A DNA stretch of 43,947 bases from Escherichia phage vB_EcoS_fFiEco03, in the sequence record NC_073315.1, one strand, 5' to 3'. The position numbers and the translations under genes are program-made. The notes under the pieces were generated by a model. The model did not search any database, had not been told where the DNA came from, and saw only the letters and a list, made by a program, of their open reading frames with translations. Numbering within the stretch: position 1 is the first letter of the stretch; each line of letters opens with the position of its first letter. Shown here in pieces: positions 1,264-10,906 of this stretch.

Positions 1264-2745
1264 ATGTTAACTATGAACGGTCAGAATCAGGGTGTTAAGA
1301 CAAAACACCGGGAATGGCTGCATCACTTTGATAAATGGCAGAAGGTGCGCCATGCGCTGGAAGGCGACCTTATCCGTTACCTGCGTAACGTCGGGAAGAA
1401 CGAGCCTGACCCGACTTACGCCGCCCAACGCCAGGAGGAATACGAGAACGGCGCTATCTGCTACAACTTCACCAAGCGCACCCTGTCGGGTATGGTCGGC
1501 TCAGTTATGAGAAAAGACCCTGAGCAGATTATTCCTCGTGAACTGGAGTATCTGTTACGCAATGCCGACGGTTCTGGTGTTGGCCTGTGGCAGCACGCGC
1601 AGGATACGCTGATGGAGATTGACTCAGTAGGCCGTGGTGGTTTGCTGGTTGACGCCCCGGAAACAGCCGCAGCAACGGCAGCCGAACAGAACGCCGGATT
1701 ATTAAACCCGGTCATCGCATTCTACACCGCAGAGAACATCATCAACTGGCGACTCACTCGCGTAGGCTCGGTTAACCGCGTCACGATGGTAGTGCTGCGC
1801 GAGGTATGGGAGTATTCAGAACCTGGTGCGGAGTTTGAAACCAAATTCGGCGAACAATACCGCGTTCTCGACTTGACTGATGGCCGCTACCGCCAGCGCA
1901 TATACCGTTTCGATGCCGAAGGTGGTGCGCAGGGTGATGTAAAAGAAATCTTCCCGGAACTGGGCGAACAGTTGCGCGGAAAAATCCCATTCACGTTTAT
2001 TGGTGCGAGTAATAACGACGCGACGGTTGATGACGCACCTTTGCTGCCGTTGGCAGAACTCAATATCGGACATTTCCGCAACAGCGCAGACAATGAGGAA
2101 TCTAGCTTCGTCGTAGGTCAGCCTACCCTGTTTATCGCCCCAGGCGAGAATATGAGCATGGAGCAGTGGAAAGAGGCCAACCCTCACGGCGTGCGCATGG
2201 GTTCGCGTTCAGGCCACAACATCGGCTACGGCGGCAATGCGTTTCTGGTTCAGGCGGGAGAGAACAACCTCGCCAAGCAGAACATGCTGGATAAAGAGAA
2301 TCAGGCCATTCAGATTGGTGCGCAGCTTATCACCCCGACGCAGCAAATCACCGCCGAATCCGCCCGCCTGCAACGTGGTGCTGACACGTCAGTTATGGCG
2401 ACAATCGCACGTAACGTAAGCATGGCGTATACCGATGCGTTGCGCTGGGTAGCGGCGATGCTAGGGTTGCGTGAAGGCACAGAGATTGAGTTCAAACTTA
2501 ACATGGAGTTCTTCCTGCAACCGATGACCGCTCAGGACCGCGCTCAGTGGATGGCGGACATTAATGCCGGTCTGCTGCCAGCGACCGCTTACTACGCCGC
2601 GTTGCGTAAAGCAGGGGTGACTGACTGGACCGACGAGGATATTCAGAACGCTATTGAGGACGCACCTCTGCCGTTAGGTGCTGTTACTCAGGTGGCAGGA
2701 GAGATTCCGCAGTCGGCGCAGCAACAAGATGTCACTCAGCAGTAA
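1264..2745 (+). CDS. Portal protein
   Basis: 493-aa ORF immediately downstream of terL with AGAGGA RBS about 7 nt upstream; size and position typical of a siphovirus portal. Confidence 0.8.
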   Translation: MLTMNGQNQGVKTKHREWLHHFDKWQKVRHALEGDLIRYLRNVGKNEPDPTYAAQRQEEYENGAICYNFTKRTLSGMVGSVMRKDPEQIIPRELEYLLRNADGSGVGLWQHAQDTLMEIDSVGRGGLLVDAPETAAATAAEQNAGLLNPVIAFYTAENIINWRLTRVGSVNRVTMVVLREVWEYSEPGAEFETKFGEQYRVLDLTDGRYRQRIYRFDAEGGAQGDVKEIFPELGEQLRGKIPFTFIGASNNDATVDDAPLLPLAELNIGHFRNSADNEESSFVVGQPTLFIAPGENMSMEQWKEANPHGVRMGSRSGHNIGYGGNAFLVQAGENNLAKQNMLDKENQAIQIGAQLITPTQQITAESARLQRGADTSVMATIARNVSMAYTDALRWVAAMLGLREGTEIEFKLNMEFFLQPMTAQDRAQWMADINAGLLPATAYYAALRKAGVTDWTDEDIQNAIEDAPLPLGAVTQVAGEIPQSAQQQDVTQQ

Positions 2746-2781: not shown

Positions 2782-3858
2782 ATGCTATTAACTTTAGCGC
2801 CACAGGGTTTATCTATGAGCTTACTTACATCTCTAATCAGCCACCAGATATGGCTGCAACGCACTGCATCCGGTGAGGTGAAAGACCTCGCGCCGTTCAT
2901 TAAGGAGATGCGGGACGAAATAAAACGGCAGGTGCTGTTATTCGGTGACGACGGGCGGAGCACTGCGCGACTGAATAAACTGTTACTCGACCTTGAAGAA
3001 GCACTGACGTGGCTTACAGGTGACTGGCAAACAAAGCTGACAGAAGACCTTAAGGAACTGGCCGCATATGAGGCTGAGTGGAACGTAAAAACACTGACCG
3101 CCAACGTTGACGCGGAATTTGTTACGCCTACCGCCGAACAGGTGTGGGCTGCTGCCGAGTTTCAGCCGCTGTCGTTAAGCGACAAGCCCGTCGATTTCAC
3201 TAAGCTGATGGCAGGCTGGGGTGAAACGGAGGCCGCGCGCCTCGTAACCGGCGTTAAGATGGGGTTTGTTCAGGGCCAAACCACACGGCAGATTGTTAAA
3301 AATGTCGTAGGCGCTGGTGGGCTGGCGGACATCTCTGAACGCAACGCGGCTACGGTAATCCGCACCGCGCTGTCTCACGTATCCAACGAAGCCCGCAACG
3401 AGACATACCGCCAGAACGACGACATCATCGAGAAATACGAGTGGGTGTCAACGCTGGACAGCCGCACCAGCACGATTTGCAGGGCCAGAGACGGAATGAC
3501 GTGGGAAATTGGTAAAGGGCCGATGCCACCCGCGCATCCTAATTGCCGAAGCACCACCGCGCCTGTAATCAGTTCGGAGTTCGACTTCCTCGATAAAGGC
3601 GCAAAACGCGCGGCTAAGGGTGCGGACGGCGGTACTCAGGTAAGTGCAGACACCACCTATTACGAGTTCCTTAAACAACAACCGGCGTGGTTTCAGGATG
3701 AAGCATTAGGGCCAGTTCGCGGTAAGATTTTCCGTAACAGCGGTATATCGCCGGAAGAGTTTCGCGTAATATCTGTAGATGGTTTCGGGAATCCGCTCAC
3801 GCTTAAGCAGATGGCGGAACTCGATAAACGTGTTGCTGATTATCTGAAAGGGGATTAA
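2782..3858 (+). CDS. Head morphogenesis protein (SPP1 gp7 / Mu F-like minor head protein)
   Basis: 358-aa ORF in the terL-portal-morphogenesis order. No clear SD at 2782, and an alternative ATG lies at 2815, so the start is uncertain. Confidence 0.7.
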   Translation: MLLTLAPQGLSMSLLTSLISHQIWLQRTASGEVKDLAPFIKEMRDEIKRQVLLFGDDGRSTARLNKLLLDLEEALTWLTGDWQTKLTEDLKELAAYEAEWNVKTLTANVDAEFVTPTAEQVWAAAEFQPLSLSDKPVDFTKLMAGWGETEAARLVTGVKMGFVQGQTTRQIVKNVVGAGGLADISERNAATVIRTALSHVSNEARNETYRQNDDIIEKYEWVSTLDSRTSTICRARDGMTWEIGKGPMPPAHPNCRSTTAPVISSEFDFLDKGAKRAAKGADGGTQVSADTTYYEFLKQQPAWFQDEALGPVRGKIFRNSGISPEEFRVISVDGFGNPLTLKQMAELDKRVADYLKGD

Positions 3859-4319
3859 TGATGGGCTTTTTCAAAGTAACTGATGTACCCGCGCGCCGCG
3901 TAGTCCAGTACGCCCGTGTGTCTGGCTCCGGCGAGAATGTGGTGTTTATTGAAGATGAAAGTGTACTAGGTACACCGGTAGACGATATGCCGTTCGCAGA
4001 TAAAACCGGTATTGCGCTACCGGCGGCGGGCATGCTTTACGAGATTCCGTATCTGGCAGACGCTGGTGACGTGTATTTCTCTGTGCAACCGAAAGACACC
4101 GAGCTGGTCGACGGTAGCACCACCATCACCGTCGAAGTTAAGGCAGGTAAAGCGCCGTATGTACTGACCTGGTACAAAGACGGGAAGGAAGTGGTGAACG
4201 CCCCGGAAGAGGCTCTGTCTCTGACTGTTAATGCGGCTGGTGAATACTTCGTTAAAGTTACTGATGCTGATGGGGTAGAGGCGGTAAGCAAGGCGGCGAA
4301 GGTTACTAAGCCAGAATGA
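3858..4319 (+). CDS. Hypothetical virion protein with C-terminal Ig-like domain
   Basis: 153 aa; ATG overlaps the upstream stop (TAATGATG); C-terminal segment resembles the Ig-like fold motif also seen in ORF 7948..8298 (PY..W.KD). Confidence 0.45.
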   Translation: MMGFFKVTDVPARRVVQYARVSGSGENVVFIEDESVLGTPVDDMPFADKTGIALPAAGMLYEIPYLADAGDVYFSVQPKDTELVDGSTTITVEVKAGKAPYVLTWYKDGKEVVNAPEEALSLTVNAAGEYFVKVTDADGVEAVSKAAKVTKPE

Positions 4320-4323
4320 TAAA

Positions 4324-4353
4324 AGGCCCCGTTAAGGGGCCTTAGTTTTATTT
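4324..4353. terminator. Bidirectional intrinsic terminator at convergent gene ends
   Basis: AGGCCCC-GTTAA-GGGGCCT stem-loop followed by TAGTTTTATTT; lies between the + gene ending 4319 and the - gene ending 4348. Confidence 0.6.
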
Positions 4354-4869
4354 AAATCGCGCTGGCATTAGCACCATAAATGCAGTGTTTGAAAACGATA
4401 TTTTGCATCCTCTGGTTTGGTCCTGGAAATCGAAACGAGCAATTTCATTTTTGTATGCCTTAGAAATCTTGTGCGCGTCTGCCAAGTAGGGCATGGTAAA
4501 TCCTATGCTATCAACTGCCCCCGGCGTGATGTGCGCCACACGTCGCCAGTCAGGAAATTTTCCGTCTACAACATCCACCGGAAGTGTACATATAAGCGCA
4601 CGACTATCGTCATAGAAAGATACACTGCCGTTGTCGTGGTCTACTTCCGCGTAGTTAAATTTAGAAGGCTCTCTCCCTTTTATGTCTATGAGAGCCCCAT
4701 TCTCAACGTTTGTCTTAACATTGTCGCAGAACAATCTATGGCCGTCCGTAGACACTATCAATCCTTCCGGGTCTATGTAAAAAGCGTTCAGATAGTAGCG
4801 TACATCATTTTTAGCCCTGCAGATTTTCGCCCCTACATACGCGGGAAAAGTAATTACTGTGGCAACCAT
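4348..4869 (-). CDS. Truncated DnaN-like (beta sliding clamp-like) protein, 173 aa
   Basis: Contains DVRYYLN...TDGHRL, DGKFPDWRRV and C-terminal MVLMPARFK, matching E. coli DnaN landmarks (DVRYYLNGMLF...TDGHRL, DGRFPDYRRV, VVMPMRL) recalled from memory; AGGAG RBS and own promoter. Confidence 0.6.
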   Translation of the reverse strand: MVATVITFPAYVGAKICRAKNDVRYYLNAFYIDPEGLIVSTDGHRLFCDNVKTNVENGALIDIKGREPSKFNYAEVDHDNGSVSFYDDSRALICTLPVDVVDGKFPDWRRVAHITPGAVDSIGFTMPYLADAHKISKAYKNEIARFDFQDQTRGCKISFSNTAFMVLMPARFK

Positions 4870-4896
4870 TTTACATCTCCTGTTTAAGTTATCCGA

Positions 4897-4925
4897 ATAG
4901 TACCCTATTATGTTGGTGTCTGCAA
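4897..4925 (-). promoter_or_regulatory. Sigma70-like promoter, class I (TTGCAG-N17-TACTAT), drives the DnaN-like gene
   Basis: Read on the - strand: -35 TTGCAG, 17-nt spacer containing ATAATAGGG, -10 TACTAT. Same architecture as the promoters at 14663, 37107 and 38586. Confidence 0.55.
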
Positions 4926-4991
4926 ACTATTTGTTTACGTATTCCAGTTATTCCACTCAATTGTAAATGTTGGAATAAACTATTCGAATAG

Positions 4992-5020
4992 TTGACTTTT
5001 CACTAAAAATATGCTAAGCT
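4992..5020 (+). promoter_or_regulatory. Sigma70-like promoter, class III (TTGACT-N17-TAAGCT, extended -10 TG)
   Basis: -35 TTGACT, 17-nt spacer ending in TGC, -10 TAAGCT. Near-identical to the promoter at 36798..36826. Confidence 0.6.
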
Positions 5021-5026
5021 CCACCT

Positions 5027-5134
5027 GAGCTTGTGAAGTATGAACAAGCGACCGCGGCGCGGGCAGGTAACGGAGCGGGACGTAAGTCCTGAGTGTAGTT
5101 ACGCTGACGCGTTCGGTAGGGCCATACTCTATTG
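5027..5134 (+). ncRNA. Promoter-proximal conserved structured RNA element, copy A (candidate sRNA or cis-acting leader)
   Basis: Begins at the predicted +1 of the 4992 promoter; about 80 percent identical to 36832..36941; two hairpins conserved with compensatory changes; frame not conserved between copies; terminator follows at 5201..5228. Confidence 0.45.
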
Positions 5135-5200
5135 CTTGTGTAAAAAGTAACTGGTTTACTGAGATTACGCCGTTTCAGTGTTTAAATGATAAGGACTAGC

Positions 5201-5228
5201 GCCCCGCTTTATGGCGGGGCTTTACTTA
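5201..5228 (+). terminator. Intrinsic terminator downstream of RNA element copy A
   Basis: GCCCCGC-TTTATG-GCGGGGC 7-bp GC stem followed by TTTACTT. Confidence 0.5.
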
Positions 5229-5244
5229 TCGAGAAAGGAGAAAC

Positions 5245-5631
5245 ATGAATCTTAAAGCAACTGTCGTAGCGGGAGCATGTTTCATCATCCTGGCTTACGC
5301 ACACGGCATCTATCAGTACCGCAGCGGCTGGAACGAAGGCCGGGCGAATCTCGTTTCGCAGCAACAGCAGGAAGCACAGGCTGAGCTGGTGAAGAAAACA
5401 CAACGGCAGCAGCAGGATGAATCAAAGGCCGCCGCCGCTGACAACGAAGGCAAGACGAAATCAGAGGTGATTACCCGTGAAGTCGTTAAGTACATTAAAA
5501 CGCCTGGCCGCAGCGTGTGCACTTTCGACGATGCTCGCGTCCTGCTCAAGTCCCACGCCGTTGCCAACGCCAATTCCATCCCCGGATACGACGATGATGC
5601 AGCCGCCGTGCAAACTGGCACCGCCAAGTAG
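5245..5631 (+). CDS. i-spanin (Rz-like)
   Basis: 128 aa with N-terminal TM segment (ATVVAGACFIILAYA), Q/E-rich coiled-coil region, and an overlapping +1-frame lipoprotein ORF. Confidence 0.65.
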   Translation: MNLKATVVAGACFIILAYAHGIYQYRSGWNEGRANLVSQQQQEAQAELVKKTQRQQQDESKAAAADNEGKTKSEVITREVVKYIKTPGRSVCTFDDARVLLKSHAVANANSIPGYDDDAAAVQTGTAK

Positions 5632-5740
5632 CGACGCTGACGAGGATTTAGCTATCGACGTTCAGAACGCCGAATGCGTACGGCAATTGCGCCTGAAAGT
5701 ATTCATGTTGCAGGATTACGTGAGGAATATTCTGGAATAG
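5477..5740 (+). CDS. o-spanin (Rz1-like outer-membrane lipoprotein), overlapping the i-spanin gene in the +1 frame
   Basis: GTG start with AGAGG RBS; signal peptide ending in lipobox LASC; proline-rich mature part (SPTPLPTPIPSP). Confidence 0.6.
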   Translation: MKSLSTLKRLAAACALSTMLASCSSPTPLPTPIPSPDTTMMQPPCKLAPPSSDADEDLAIDVQNAECVRQLRLKVFMLQDYVRNILE

Positions 5741-10101: not shown

Positions 10102-10493
10102 GTTTCGCGCTTGATGTCTCTAAGTTCGTGGAAAAGGCGAAGAAGAACCCCGAGAAGGTGATGCGTCAGGTGTCTATCAAGCTGTTTTCCGCTATTATAA
10201 AGGCGAGTCCGGTAGATACGGGCCGCTTTCGTATGAACTGGATGGTGTCTGGCGGTACTCCTGCTTCCGGGATTACGGACGCCACCGATAAATCAGGAAA
10301 CACGGCAACCGGAAACGCCACTAGTTTTGTGCTGAAAGCCGCAGACTGGCACGAGTTCACGCTGACTAATAACCTGCCGTACGCCCAACCTCTTGAGTAC
10401 GGTTGGTCGCAACAGGCCCCGCAAGGCATGGTCAGGACTAATGTGTCACGCTTCCAGCAACTAATTAATGAAGAAGCCAATAAGGTAAAATGA
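10098..10493 (+). CDS. Tail component (HK97 gp10-like)
   Basis: 131 aa containing a VDTGRFRMNW motif recalled as typical of the HK97 gp10 tail-component family. Confidence 0.5.
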   Translation: MSFALDVSKFVEKAKKNPEKVMRQVSIKLFSAIIKASPVDTGRFRMNWMVSGGTPASGITDATDKSGNTATGNATSFVLKAADWHEFTLTNNLPYAQPLEYGWSQQAPQGMVRTNVSRFQQLINEEANKVK

Positions 10494-10906
10494 TGGGCTA
10501 CTTTGAAGACTTAACCAAAGCGTTCGACGTGCCGCTGGTAGCCTTCGGGGCCGCCAACGGCATCAGGGTAGCGCTTGAGAACATCGACGCTCCGACGTCA
10601 ACCGATACGCCATACCTTGCGAGTTACATGCTACTGGCGGATACCGAGCAGGCCGACTTATTTTTCACCGAGCAACGTGCAGGTATTTATCAGGTAGACA
10701 TTAACTACGCATCTGTGAAAGGTAGCGCGCCAATCAATAAAATGGCAGACTTACTTAACACGGCATTCAAAGCAGGTAAGTCTTTTTCACGTAACGACAT
10801 CTGCGCCGAAGTGCAATCGGTTAGCCTGGGGCCGCTGATTGTAGAAAATGGATGGGCCAAAAGACCATTGTCGATTAACTTTATTGCATTCACCAAGAGG
10901 CTGTGA
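10490..10906 (+). CDS. Putative tail completion or terminator protein
   Basis: 138-aa ORF immediately upstream of the major tail gene; synteny only. Confidence 0.4.
   Translation: MMGYFEDLTKAFDVPLVAFGAANGIRVALENIDAPTSTDTPYLASYMLLADTEQADLFFTEQRAGIYQVDINYASVKGSAPINKMADLLNTAFKAGKSFSRNDICAEVQSVSLGPLIVENGWAKRPLSINFIAFTKRL

What the first reader, a model, noticed from the sequence alone, without database searches (positions are those of the whole stretch)
4348..4925. Truncated beta-sliding-clamp (DnaN) homologue expressed antisense inside the head module
A 173-aa - strand ORF has its own class I promoter (4897..4925) and AGGAG RBS and is bracketed by a bidirectional terminator. It keeps DnaN landmarks in the right order: DVRYYLN...TDGHRL (domain II), DGKFPDWRRV (E. 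coli DGRFPDYRRV linker) and C-terminal MVLMPARFK (E. coli VVMPMRL). It is less than half the length of a clamp and lacks domain I and most of domain III. As I recall, the retained segments are the ones lining the protein-binding cleft of the clamp. That suggests a cleft decoy or dominant-negative subunit that sequesters host clamp-binding partners or poisons host beta dimers. The region looks AT-richer than the flanking structural genes, as expected for an acquired moron.
Basis: partly seen in the sequence, partly recalled or inferred. Interest (0 to 1): 0.85.

Follow-up and report, generated by a model that had tools for sequence, protein, structure and literature searches.

The report
Cleft-only mini beta-clamp phage accessory gene
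This E. coli phage carries an intact, selected 173-residue fragment-like copy of the bacterial DNA sliding clamp that keeps only the pocket where clamp partners dock; it belongs to a large phage family that is already annotated and was noted in 2011, but nobody has tested what it does.

Summary
Window 4348..4869 (- strand) encodes a 173-aa protein with an AGGAG ribosome-binding site, a bidirectional terminator and lower G+C than its flanks. It is a true DnaN relative: family profile vs E. coli beta clamp E=1e-34, and the AlphaFold model (pLDDT 96) hits only beta clamps. It keeps domain II (minus one helix) and the C-terminal half of domain III. It lacks domain I and the half of domain III that forms the dimer interface. 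Nearly all near-invariant family residues are the E. coli partner-binding cleft residues.

It is neither a decayed remnant nor unique. Orthologues are intact (dN/dS about 0.12). The short form has 824 clusters (50% identity), nearly all of those listed 160-220 aa. GenBank already labels it "DNA polymerase III sliding clamp", "beta clamp domain-containing protein" or, wrongly, "RusA-like resolvase". A 2011 survey noted short phage polIII-beta homologues.

In this genus it is optional cargo: phage Bas70 has an unrelated 67-aa ORF between the same promoter/RBS and terminator.

Best reading: a soluble, non-ring module that binds clamp-binding motifs. This is inferred, not shown. Poisoning of host beta dimers is not supported. 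A general Pol III poison is unlikely, because polymerase-less phages also carry the gene.

The parts
4348..4869 (-). CDS of the 173-aa mini beta-clamp, stop codon included
   Evidence: ORF list. Full-length match to PHROG 3007, E=1.6e-37. Orthologues are intact with dN/dS about 0.12.
4537..4824 (-). Codons for aa16-111, the equivalent of DnaN domain II (E. coli beta 144-247). Includes DVRYYLN, TDGHRL and DGKFPDWRRV. This sub-lineage lacks the second helix of domain II.
   Evidence: phmmer and profile alignments to beta. Model secondary structure shows no helix between residues 59 and 100. Longer family members keep that helix.
4351..4524 (-). Codons for aa116-173, one beta-alpha-beta-beta-beta unit best matched to the C-terminal half of DnaN domain III (beta 311-366). 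Ends in MPARFK, matching beta MPMRL.
   Evidence: Alignments. The unit also aligns to the homologous first half of domain III, but the GFxxxY and MPxR motifs and the span of the Foldseek alignment favour the C-terminal half.
4877..4881 (-). Shine-Dalgarno sequence AGGAG, 7 nt upstream of the ATG
   Evidence: Read from the sequence. Conserved in Bas70, where it serves a different ORF.
4897..4926 (-). Candidate sigma-70 promoter TTTGCA-18 nt-TACTAT. Weak, unverified.
   Evidence: Read from the sequence. It matches 8 of 12 positions, below the scan threshold. Conserved in Bas70.
4323..4343 (.). Bidirectional intrinsic terminator shared with the convergent Hoc-like decoration gene
   Evidence: Terminator scan on both strands. 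Identity with Bas70 breaks inside this hairpin.
4870..5244 (.). Conserved 375-bp upstream region. With the terminator it forms an expression slot that holds different cargo ORFs in different kagunaviruses.
   Evidence: This region differs from Bas70 at only a handful of positions, while the ORF is replaced by an unrelated 67-aa ORF.

Best explanation
The gene encodes a functional, non-ring derivative of the beta sliding clamp. It keeps DnaN domain II plus the C-terminal half of domain III, which is the beta-sheet and helices that form the hydrophobic cleft where clamp-binding motifs (QL[SD]LF-type peptides) dock. It has lost domain I and the dimer-interface half of domain III, so it cannot close a ring or join a host beta dimer in the canonical way.

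I infer that it works off DNA as a soluble cleft. It would bind proteins that carry clamp-binding motifs and so compete with, or stand in for, the host clamp for a subset of its clients during early phage DNA metabolism. A single-surface competitor (a sponge or decoy) is the simplest reading.

In this phage it is optional cargo. It is expressed from its own promoter and RBS in a swap slot between the Hoc-like and spanin genes, antisense to the head genes.

Shown here: homology, architecture, cleft-residue conservation, purifying selection, accessory status, family breadth. Inferred: peptide binding, the identity of the clients, and the sign of the effect.
For: - Homology and fold.
- Of the 20 invariant or near-invariant family positions, 19 lie in the four cleft-forming segments, on the beta numbering of the alignments: D22 R24 Y25 Y26 N28 (beta 150-156), T41 D42 G43 H44 R45 (172-176), D102 G103 P106 D107 R110 (238-246), Y128 (Y323) and M168 P169 R171 (362-365). 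The twentieth is K140. No second conserved patch is visible in the alignment.
- Motif retention in 230 members: MPxR in 177, [FY]PD in 189, RYY in 168, TDGHR in 141.
- Purifying selection: median dN/dS 0.12 over 41 pairs, all orthologues 522 bp and intact.
- A stable short family: 824 clusters at 50% identity with E<=1e-3. Among the 244 family sequences retrieved, 217 are 160-219 aa. BFVD holds phage proteins of 163-250 aa; the best match with TM 0.80-0.87 on the query and 0.72-0.84 on the target.
- Accessory slot. Low G+C.
- Early, replication and anti-restriction neighbourhoods in other lineages.
- AlphaFold2 fusion with an internal control: the C-terminal RQLSLF reached pLDDT >=50 with beta-bridges at residues 246 and 170. 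The scrambled peptide and linkers stayed at 36-42.
Against: - No binding data exist.
- The in-silico docking signal is weak: block mean pLDDT is 52.
- The cleft residues are also the structural core of the domain II/III junction, so their conservation could partly reflect folding.
- No client was identified. Clamp-binding-motif-like strings in the phage's own ORFs were unconvincing.
- The recurrent placement next to phage replication initiators and primase-helicases could equally mean a positive, adaptor-type role.
- No paper describing a function was found.
Confidence: 0.5

Rival explanations
1. Positive adaptor. The mini-clamp uses its cleft to capture host Pol III (the clamp-binding motifs of alpha or epsilon) or another clamp client. 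A second, lineage-specific surface then delivers that client to the phage replication machinery (initiator, primase-helicase or phage PolA). The effect would be to promote phage DNA synthesis rather than inhibit the host.
For: - In lambdoid Hafnia phage yong1 the gene lies between cII and the O-like replisome organiser and DnaC-like loader.
- In other lineages it lies beside DUF5906 or Prim-Pol primase-helicases, a DnaA_C-domain protein and DUF2800/DUF2815-type modules.
- DS8 has the gene, a primase and helicases, but no annotated polymerase.
Against: - It is dispensable within Kagunavirus. Bas70, Bas75, SHAK7858 and fEg-Eco06 cover only 87% of the query region, and in Bas70 an unrelated 67-aa ORF occupies the slot.
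- In this window it is far from the replication genes.
- No second conserved surface is visible in the family alignment.
- No partner gene is shared across lineages. The small phrog_4439 and Nmad5 neighbours have no homologue in the window.
Confidence: 0.25
2. Genuine processivity factor. The protein either oligomerises into a ring-like assembly, or binds DNA directly as a non-ring clamp (as herpesvirus UL42/UL44 do), and tethers the phage family-A DNA polymerase.
For: - It has the clamp fold.
- The phage encodes its own DNA polymerase, and GenBank authors interpret the gene this way.
- Non-ring clamp homologues without clamp loaders exist in viruses (PMC3201878).
Against: - With 1.5 domains, the two free edges are of different types (inter-domain versus intra-domain), so canonical head-to-tail closure is impossible. 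This is inference from clamp topology.
- This sub-lineage has lost one of the three helices expected to line the channel.
- pI is 6.9 with K+R = D+E = 21, so there is no basic character.
- The family occurs in phages with no annotated polymerase.
- The polymerase ORF has no clamp-binding-motif-like string.
- The gene is dispensable in sister phages that have the same polymerase region.
Confidence: 0.08
3. Counter-defence decoy. The free cleft soaks up a host or prophage toxin or nuclease that normally attacks replication through the clamp cleft, protecting the replisome the phage needs. SocB of Caulobacter is a known clamp-targeting toxin (from my own knowledge).
For: - It is a swap-slot accessory gene.
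- In other lineages it sits in operons with anti-restriction, ArdC, ParB-like, DNA methyltransferase, DUF932 and Nmad5 genes.
- Nmad5, its neighbour in Dhillonvirus, is tied to sensing by the Tmn defence (PMC11846954).
Against: - There is no PADLOC match.
- No enterobacterial defence system that targets the clamp was identified here.
- The neighbourhood evidence is guilt by association only.
Confidence: 0.12
4. Non-functional remnant of an acquired dnaN, or a RusA-type Holliday-junction resolvase as PHROG-based annotations state.
For: - It is less than half the length of DnaN.
- Many GenBank records carry the PHROG 3007 label 'RusA-like Holliday junction resolvase'.
- A few relatives are split into two ORFs: PEi21 and locus L059.
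Against: - dN/dS is about 0.12 and the length is conserved.
- Hundreds of diverged clusters share the same architecture.
- The predicted fold is confident.
- The only Pfam hit is the clamp central domain and the structural matches are all clamps, with no RusA match.
- There is no DNA similarity to any E. coli genome.
Confidence: 0.02

Closest known systems
Bacterial beta sliding clamp DnaN (E. coli beta, PDB 1MMI/2POL; Pfam PF00712+PF02767+PF02768)
   Same: Same fold for domain II and for one beta-alpha-beta-beta-beta unit of domain III. The cleft-forming residues align to matching residues at 16 of the 18 positions I compared by hand: R152 Y153 Y154 L155 N156 T172 G174 H175 R176 L177 P242 R246 V247 Y323 V360 M362 P363 R365. 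The two differences are N320->T125 and M364->A170.
   Different: 173 aa against 366 aa. It has no domain I, no first half of domain III and no dimer interface, and it lacks one helix of domain II. It scores below the curated Pfam and TIGRFAM cut-offs. It cannot form the canonical ring.
Short phage polIII-beta homologues (Kazlauskas & Venclovas 2011, PMC3201878; PHROG 3007; GenBank 'beta clamp domain-containing protein')
   Same: This protein is a member. It matches PHROG 3007 over its full length (E=1.6e-37) and shares the architecture and length class. [quoted passage not shown]
   Different: This sub-lineage (169-178 aa) is the most reduced and also lacks the second helix of domain II. The earlier work gave no function and treated such genes as probably dispensable horizontal acquisitions.
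E. coli beta* (UV-inducible 26-kDa internal-start product of dnaN; recalled from Skaliter/Paz-Elizur/Livneh 1996, not checked here)
   Same: A naturally truncated clamp that lacks domain I.
   Different: Beta* keeps complete domains II and III and was reported to act as an oligomeric processivity clamp. The phage protein lacks half of domain III.
Non-ring viral processivity factors with a PCNA fold (HSV UL42, HCMV UL44)
   Same: Clamp-fold proteins that do not form closed rings and that bind a polymerase peptide in the equivalent cleft.
   Different: Those have two full domains and a basic DNA-binding face. This protein has 1.5 domains and is neutral, with pI 6.9.
Phage factors that exploit or target the host beta clamp (Mu MuC, PMC12867686; Staphylococcus phage clamp inhibitors, recalled)
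   Same: The same host node, the clamp-client network, is manipulated by phages. MuC overexpression is lethal and host replication over-initiates (abstract of the preprint version).
   Different: Those proteins carry a clamp-binding motif or bind the clamp. This one imitates the clamp's binding pocket, which is the reverse strategy.

Membership tests
Beta sliding clamp (DnaN) | Three-domain subunit of about 366 aa that passes the curated family models | tested here: not met
   173 aa. TIGR00663 scores 17.7 bits against a cut-off of 137.65. PF02767 scores 17.7 against 27, and the N- and C-terminal domain models give no hit.
Beta sliding clamp (DnaN) | Homologous clamp fold | tested here: met
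   Profile against PDB gives E=1e-34. Foldseek top 50 hits are all beta clamps, best E=5e-8. Model pLDDT is 95.9.
Beta sliding clamp (DnaN) | Head-to-tail dimer interface (domain I strand with F106/L108, against domain III I272/L273 and the 300-304 strand) | tested here: not met
   The preferred alignment covers beta 144-252 and 311-365 only, so the interface segments have no counterpart. The profile search also aligns the C-terminal unit to beta 254-297, its internal repeat. Interface residues are from published structures (my own knowledge).
Beta sliding clamp (DnaN) | Conserved hydrophobic cleft that binds clamp-binding motifs | tested here: met
   Met at the sequence level. Cleft residues are matched and near-invariant in the family. 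Actual peptide binding was not shown; the AlphaFold2 fusion test was weak.
Beta sliding clamp (DnaN) | Encircles DNA, is loaded by a clamp loader, and confers processivity | not testable with these tools
   Needs biochemistry. The topology argues against ring closure (inference).
Short phage polIII-beta homologues (PHROG 3007) | Full-length match to the family profile | tested here: met
   phrog_3007 E=1.6e-37, aa13-172 against profile positions 12-186 of 190.
Short phage polIII-beta homologues (PHROG 3007) | Length of about 165-220 aa with domain II plus a C-terminal unit ending in MPxR | tested here: met
   BFVD members align with TM up to 0.87 on the query and 0.84 on the target.
RusA Holliday-junction resolvase (the label attached to PHROG 3007) | RusA fold or family match | tested here: not met
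   The only Pfam hit is the clamp central domain. Structure matches are all clamps.
Phage moron / accessory cassette | Own expression signals, compositional difference, and presence/absence or replacement among close relatives | tested here: met
   RBS and terminator. G+C 0.38-0.47 against 0.50-0.58. ORF-precise replacement by a 67-aa ORF in Bas70 with conserved flanks. The promoter is a weak consensus match only.
Non-ring DNA-binding processivity factors (UL42-like) | Elevated positive charge or a basic DNA-binding face | tested here: not met
   pI 6.9 with K+R=21 and D+E=21. The family median pI is 7.7.
Known anti-phage defence components | Match to a PADLOC model | tested here: not met
   No families matched at E<=10.

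The most novel reading that the evidence does not exclude
The short DnaN family is a widespread phage 'sponge' for clamp-binding motifs. It would be a free copy of the clamp's docking pocket that rewires the host clamp-client network. For example, it could titrate delta, Hda, MutL/MutS or translesion polymerases, or neutralise clamp-directed toxins, while leaving the ring-bound replicase working. That would be a host-takeover or counter-defence principle not yet described: mimicry of the hub's pocket rather than of its ligands.
Probability: 0.3. Interest if true: 0.75.

Novelty: new member of a known kind. Interest (0 to 1): 0.5.

Why it matters
The beta-clamp cleft is the hub through which bacterial polymerases, repair enzymes and replication regulators reach DNA, and it is an antibiotic target. 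A family of hundreds of diverged phage proteins has been pared down to that cleft and kept under purifying selection. This suggests that phages manipulate the hub by imitating it.

If the protein does bind clamp-binding motifs, three things follow:
- It would be a natural, minimal, monomer-sized cleft scaffold, useful for inhibitor screening.
- It would be a new handle on which clamp clients matter during infection.
- It would correct a widely propagated misannotation ('RusA-like resolvase', or 'sliding clamp' implying processivity).

For this window alone the finding is modest: a known, annotated accessory gene in a swap slot.

Tried and rejected
- **Clamp-binding motifs in the phage's own ORFs.** A regex and terminal-motif search found only QVLLF (head morphogenesis protein), QADLF (138-aa ORF 10490..10906), QLMLY, QINVY, and QLAFIL near the end of a 45-aa ORF. 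None is in the polymerase and none is convincing, so I dropped this.
- **Partner genes seen in other lineages.** The small phrog_4439 ORF and Nmad5 gave no credible match among window ORFs (best E 0.021 and 0.44).
- **PADLOC defence models.** No hit.
- **Rfam on 4300..5300.** No hit.
- **E. coli complete genomes, DNA level.** No match, so the gene is not a recent copy of host dnaN or of a common E. coli prophage gene.
- **Literature.** Eight searches found no functional study. They found only the 2011 survey and genome announcements that call the protein a sliding clamp. Iyer et al. 2013 (PMC3763556) is not held.
- **AlphaFold2 with a tethered consensus clamp-binding motif and a scrambled control.** The result favours the true motif only weakly, so I treat it as inconclusive.
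- **Homotetrameric ring from four 3-unit subunits.** Rejected on topology, because the two free edges are of different interface types. This is reasoning, not computation.
- **Fusion proteins P0223 and P0231 (502 and 429 aa).** Their C-terminal extensions have no Pfam domain and look low-complexity, so they were uninformative.
- **Neighbour clustering over 89 loci.** The sample was dominated by three lineages. It gave associations (small upstream ORF, ParB-like protein, DNA methylase, CI repressor) but no universal partner.
Full report
**What the window is.** The region around the finding is 92-93% identical at the DNA level to Escherichia phages of the genus Kagunavirus (Guernseyvirinae), such as Ivi, fPoEco01 and fFiEco02. 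An IMG/VR contig encodes a 100% identical protein (L015). In phage Ivi the gene order is terminase, portal, minor capsid protein, Ig-domain (Hoc-like) protein, then a minus-strand 'beta clamp domain-containing protein', then spanins, scaffold and major capsid. The replication genes lie about 20 kb away on the other strand: family-A DNA polymerase, helicase, AAA ATPase, SSB and exonuclease.

**Checking the observation.**
- The ORF 4348..4869 (-) encodes 173 aa.
- AGGAG lies 7 nt upstream of the ATG.
- A hairpin at 4323..4343 scores as an intrinsic terminator on both strands.
- G+C falls to 0.38-0.47 over the gene and its upstream region, against 0.50-0.58 in the flanks.
- The proposed promoter is TTTGCA-18 nt-TACTAT at 4926..4897. 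It matches only 8 of 12 consensus positions and was not called by the scan. It is conserved in a relative.
- All four quoted motifs are present.

**Is it really a DnaN relative?** Yes.
- The single sequence finds E. coli beta in the PDB at E=5e-6. Residues 16-116 align to beta 144-252 (domain II) and residues 116-171 to beta 311-365.
- A profile of 43 family members raises this to E=1e-34.
- An AlphaFold2 model built on that alignment is very confident (pLDDT 95.9, pTM 0.91). Its 50 best Foldseek matches in the PDB are all beta clamps.
- The curated models reject it as a full clamp: PF02767 scores 17.7 against 27 bits, and TIGR00663 scores 17.7 against 137.65 bits.

**Anatomy.** The model has three beta-alpha-beta-beta-beta-type units:
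- residues 3-50, with helix 8-17;
- residues 59-100, four strands and no helix;
- residues 122-167, with helix 126-138.

Longer family members (190-215 aa) keep the helix in the second unit. The 169-178-aa sub-lineage that includes this phage has lost it.

The third unit aligns to both halves of domain III, because the halves are internal repeats. The motifs IGFxxxY and MPxR, and the Foldseek alignment length of about 250-270 columns for a 173-residue query, favour the C-terminal half.

In the known clamp topology (my own knowledge of the Kong et al. structure and of PCNA), the last strand of domain III pairs with the fourth strand of domain II. Together they form the cleft. The retained pieces are therefore a contiguous arc centred on the II/III boundary.

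Two segments are missing: domain I and the first half of domain III. These carry the dimer interface (F106/L108, and I272/L273 with the 300-304 strand).

**Conservation points at the cleft.** The family has 3 invariant and 17 near-invariant positions. Nineteen of these 20 fall in four segments:

| Phage residues | E. coli beta equivalent |
|---|---|
| D22 R24 Y25 Y26 N28 | 150-156 |
| T41 D42 G43 H44 R45 | 172-176 |
| D102 G103 P106 D107 R110 | 238-246 |
| Y128 | Y323 |
| M168 P169 R171 | 362-365 |

The twentieth is K140. From the published peptide complexes, these segments line the two subsites of the clamp-binding-motif pocket. Among 230 members of 150-260 aa, MPxR occurs in 177, [FY]PD in 189, RYY in 168 and TDGHR in 141. 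No second conserved patch is apparent in the alignment.

**It is a working gene in a large family.**
- Nine kagunavirus loci carry intact 522-bp orthologues; one of them (L015) is identical to the window gene. The median pairwise dN/dS over 41 pairs is 0.12, with a range of 0.06-0.20.
- An exhaustive HMMER search of 1.84 billion cluster representatives finds 824 clusters at E<=1e-3.
- BFVD holds phage proteins of 163-250 aa. The best superpose with TM 0.80-0.87 on the query and 0.72-0.84 on the target. They come from Serratia, Pantoea, Burkholderia, Rhodococcus, Bacillus and Gordonia phages.
- tblastn finds the protein in 223 GenBank phage records.

**It is already annotated.** GenBank names include 'DNA polymerase III sliding clamp', 'DNA polymerase III beta subunit' and 'beta clamp domain-containing protein'. 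Through PHROG 3007 it also carries 'RusA-like Holliday junction resolvase'. The fold shows that last label to be wrong. A genome paper on phage fBC-Eco01 calls its copy a processivity clamp. [quoted passage not shown] I found no functional study.

**Accessory status in this genus.** Four kagunaviruses (SHAK7858, Bas70, Bas75, fEg-Eco06) cover only 87% of the 4-kb query region. In Bas70 the same position and strand hold an unrelated 67-aa ORF. The DNA alignment is near-identical up to the first arm of the terminator. It becomes near-identical again exactly at the start codon and RBS, and stays so through the whole 375-bp upstream region. The promoter, RBS and terminator therefore form a conserved slot with interchangeable cargo. 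The gene has no DNA match in 5,426 complete E. coli genomes.

**Context in other lineages.** The gene sits in early, replication or anti-restriction regions:
- Dhillonvirus WF5505 has the same antisense position in the head module, preceded by an Nmad5 gene. A metagenomic phage has the order Nmad5, 53-aa ORF, mini-clamp, then dUTPase further downstream.
- DS8-type phages have an operon of anti-restriction protein, ParB-like protein, HNH, a 57-aa phrog_4439 ORF and the mini-clamp. An N6/N4 DNA methylase often lies just upstream.
- Skarpretter places it between a Dam methylase and further methylases.
- A Vibrio phage has the order phrog_4439 ORF, mini-clamp, ASCH-like protein, Dam, SSB.
- Other contigs place it near DUF932, ArdC, DUF6378, a DnaA_C-domain protein, and DUF5906 or Prim-Pol primase-helicases.
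- A Pseudomonas island has an NA37 nucleoid-protein gene overlapping it.
- In lambdoid Hafnia phage yong1 the order is cI | cro - cII - mini-clamp - Phage_rep_org_N - DnaC-like.

DS8 has no annotated DNA polymerase. The yong1 region shown has a lambda-type replisome-organiser/loader module and no polymerase. I infer that such phages depend on the host Pol III holoenzyme and its beta clamp.

**Mechanism.** What is shown is a clamp-derived protein reduced to the client-binding cleft, under selection, and unable to use the canonical ring interfaces. The inference is that it binds clamp-binding motifs in solution.

I tested this crudely. I fused the protein, and 25 homologues for the alignment, to a scrambled decapeptide and then to GGSGRQLSLF through long Gly-Ser linkers. 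In the AlphaFold2 model the true motif's six residues reach pLDDT >=50, and beta-bridges appear at residues 246 and 170, next to the MPAR strand. The scrambled peptide and linkers stay at 36-42. This agrees with the canonical binding mode but is weak, and AlphaFold may be recalling clamp-peptide complexes.

On the sign of the effect:
- A general Pol III or clamp-loader poison is hard to reconcile with carriage by phages that appear to depend on Pol III.
- An essential replisome adaptor is hard to reconcile with dispensability and cassette swapping in Kagunavirus.
- A selective competitor for peripheral clamp clients, or for a clamp-directed antagonist, fits both observations and needs only the one conserved surface. 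I therefore rank it first (0.5 for cleft-mediated binding as the core mechanism).
- The adaptor role (0.25), a counter-defence decoy (0.12) and a true processivity factor (0.08) are the alternatives.

'Poisoning host beta dimers' is not supported, because the interface-bearing segments are absent.

**Verdict.** Its estimates of novelty and interest were too high. This is a new member of a known, widely annotated, functionally uncharacterised family. The useful outputs here are:
- the precise anatomy (domain II plus the C-terminal half of domain III, centred on the cleft);
- evidence of selection and of family size;
- the swap-slot architecture;
- the argument against both the 'processivity clamp' and the 'RusA' annotations;
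- a short list of decisive experiments.

Noticed in passing
window 4992..5225, + strand: Back-to-back with the mini-clamp promoter lies a + strand TTGACT-17 nt-TAAGCT element with an upstream TG (4992..5020). About 200 nt follow, and then a strong intrinsic terminator at 5201..5220, immediately before the spanin, scaffold and capsid genes. The region is almost identical in Bas70. It looks like a short terminated leader (as with lambda PR'-6S RNA-tR' and Q-type antitermination) or a small RNA. Rfam gave no hit. The RNA fold has z=-2.45. A 36-aa ORF (5040..5150) lies in the region corresponding to the one annotated 'hypothetical protein' in Bas70.
   Followed up: partly
window 4323..5244 compared with L095 (Bas70) 1477..2130: The slot between the Hoc-like gene and the spanins carries alternative cargo. 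Bas70 has an unrelated 67-aa ORF (MYAICEVVQEFDEE...) that uses the same RBS, start position and terminator. That ORF has no Pfam match.
   Followed up: partly
PHROG 3007; GenBank records: The label 'RusA-like Holliday junction resolvase' attached to PHROG 3007 is propagated to dozens of phage genomes (DS8, Skate, Skarpretter, SHAK7693 and others). The proteins are beta-clamp derivatives, so this is a systematic misannotation.
   Followed up: yes
L004 1979..2152 (DS8 gp74); L005 3711..3974 (Vibrio phage R19R gene 55); 39 DS8-type loci: A small phrog_4439 ORF (57-87 aa) sits immediately upstream of the mini-clamp in at least two distant lineages. Its C-terminus is conserved and resembles a hexapeptide clamp-binding motif: ...KQHMIKVK in DS8-type phages and ...QEAFKF in the Vibrio phage. 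It could be a cognate ligand for the cleft. The window has no homologue.
   Followed up: partly
L003 3146..3910 (Dhillonvirus WF5505); L009 4196..4849: An Nmad5 gene directly precedes the mini-clamp in two unrelated phages. In Dhillonvirus a single Nmad5 substitution lets the phage escape the Tmn defence, and nmad5 could not be cloned because of apparent toxicity (PMC11846954). A functional link between Nmad5 and the mini-clamp is unexplored.
   Followed up: partly
L013 3947..4516 (Edwardsiella phage PEi21); L059 5962..6504: In these two relatives the mini-clamp is split into two ORFs of about 80-98 aa. This could be a frameshift, a sequencing error or a pseudogene. Intact copies are the rule.
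   Followed up: no
relatives of window 2782..4319 (L096): The neighbouring head genes are a hotspot for selfish elements in relatives. fFiEco02 has an HNH homing endonuclease between the head-morphogenesis and Hoc-like genes, and phage Snoke has an intein inside the capsid-morphogenesis protein.
   Followed up: no
window 5245..5740: The i-spanin gene and its embedded o-spanin gene lie inside the head module. In phage Ivi the holin and endolysin genes are annotated about 8 kb away.
   Followed up: no
BFVD hit A0A6J7W9M3_1: A 1394-aa 'large polyvalent protein-associated domain-containing protein' from an uncultured phage gives a weak structural match to the mini-clamp (E=9e-6, TM 0.54). This hints that a clamp-derived module may also occur inside polyvalent early proteins.
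   Followed up: no
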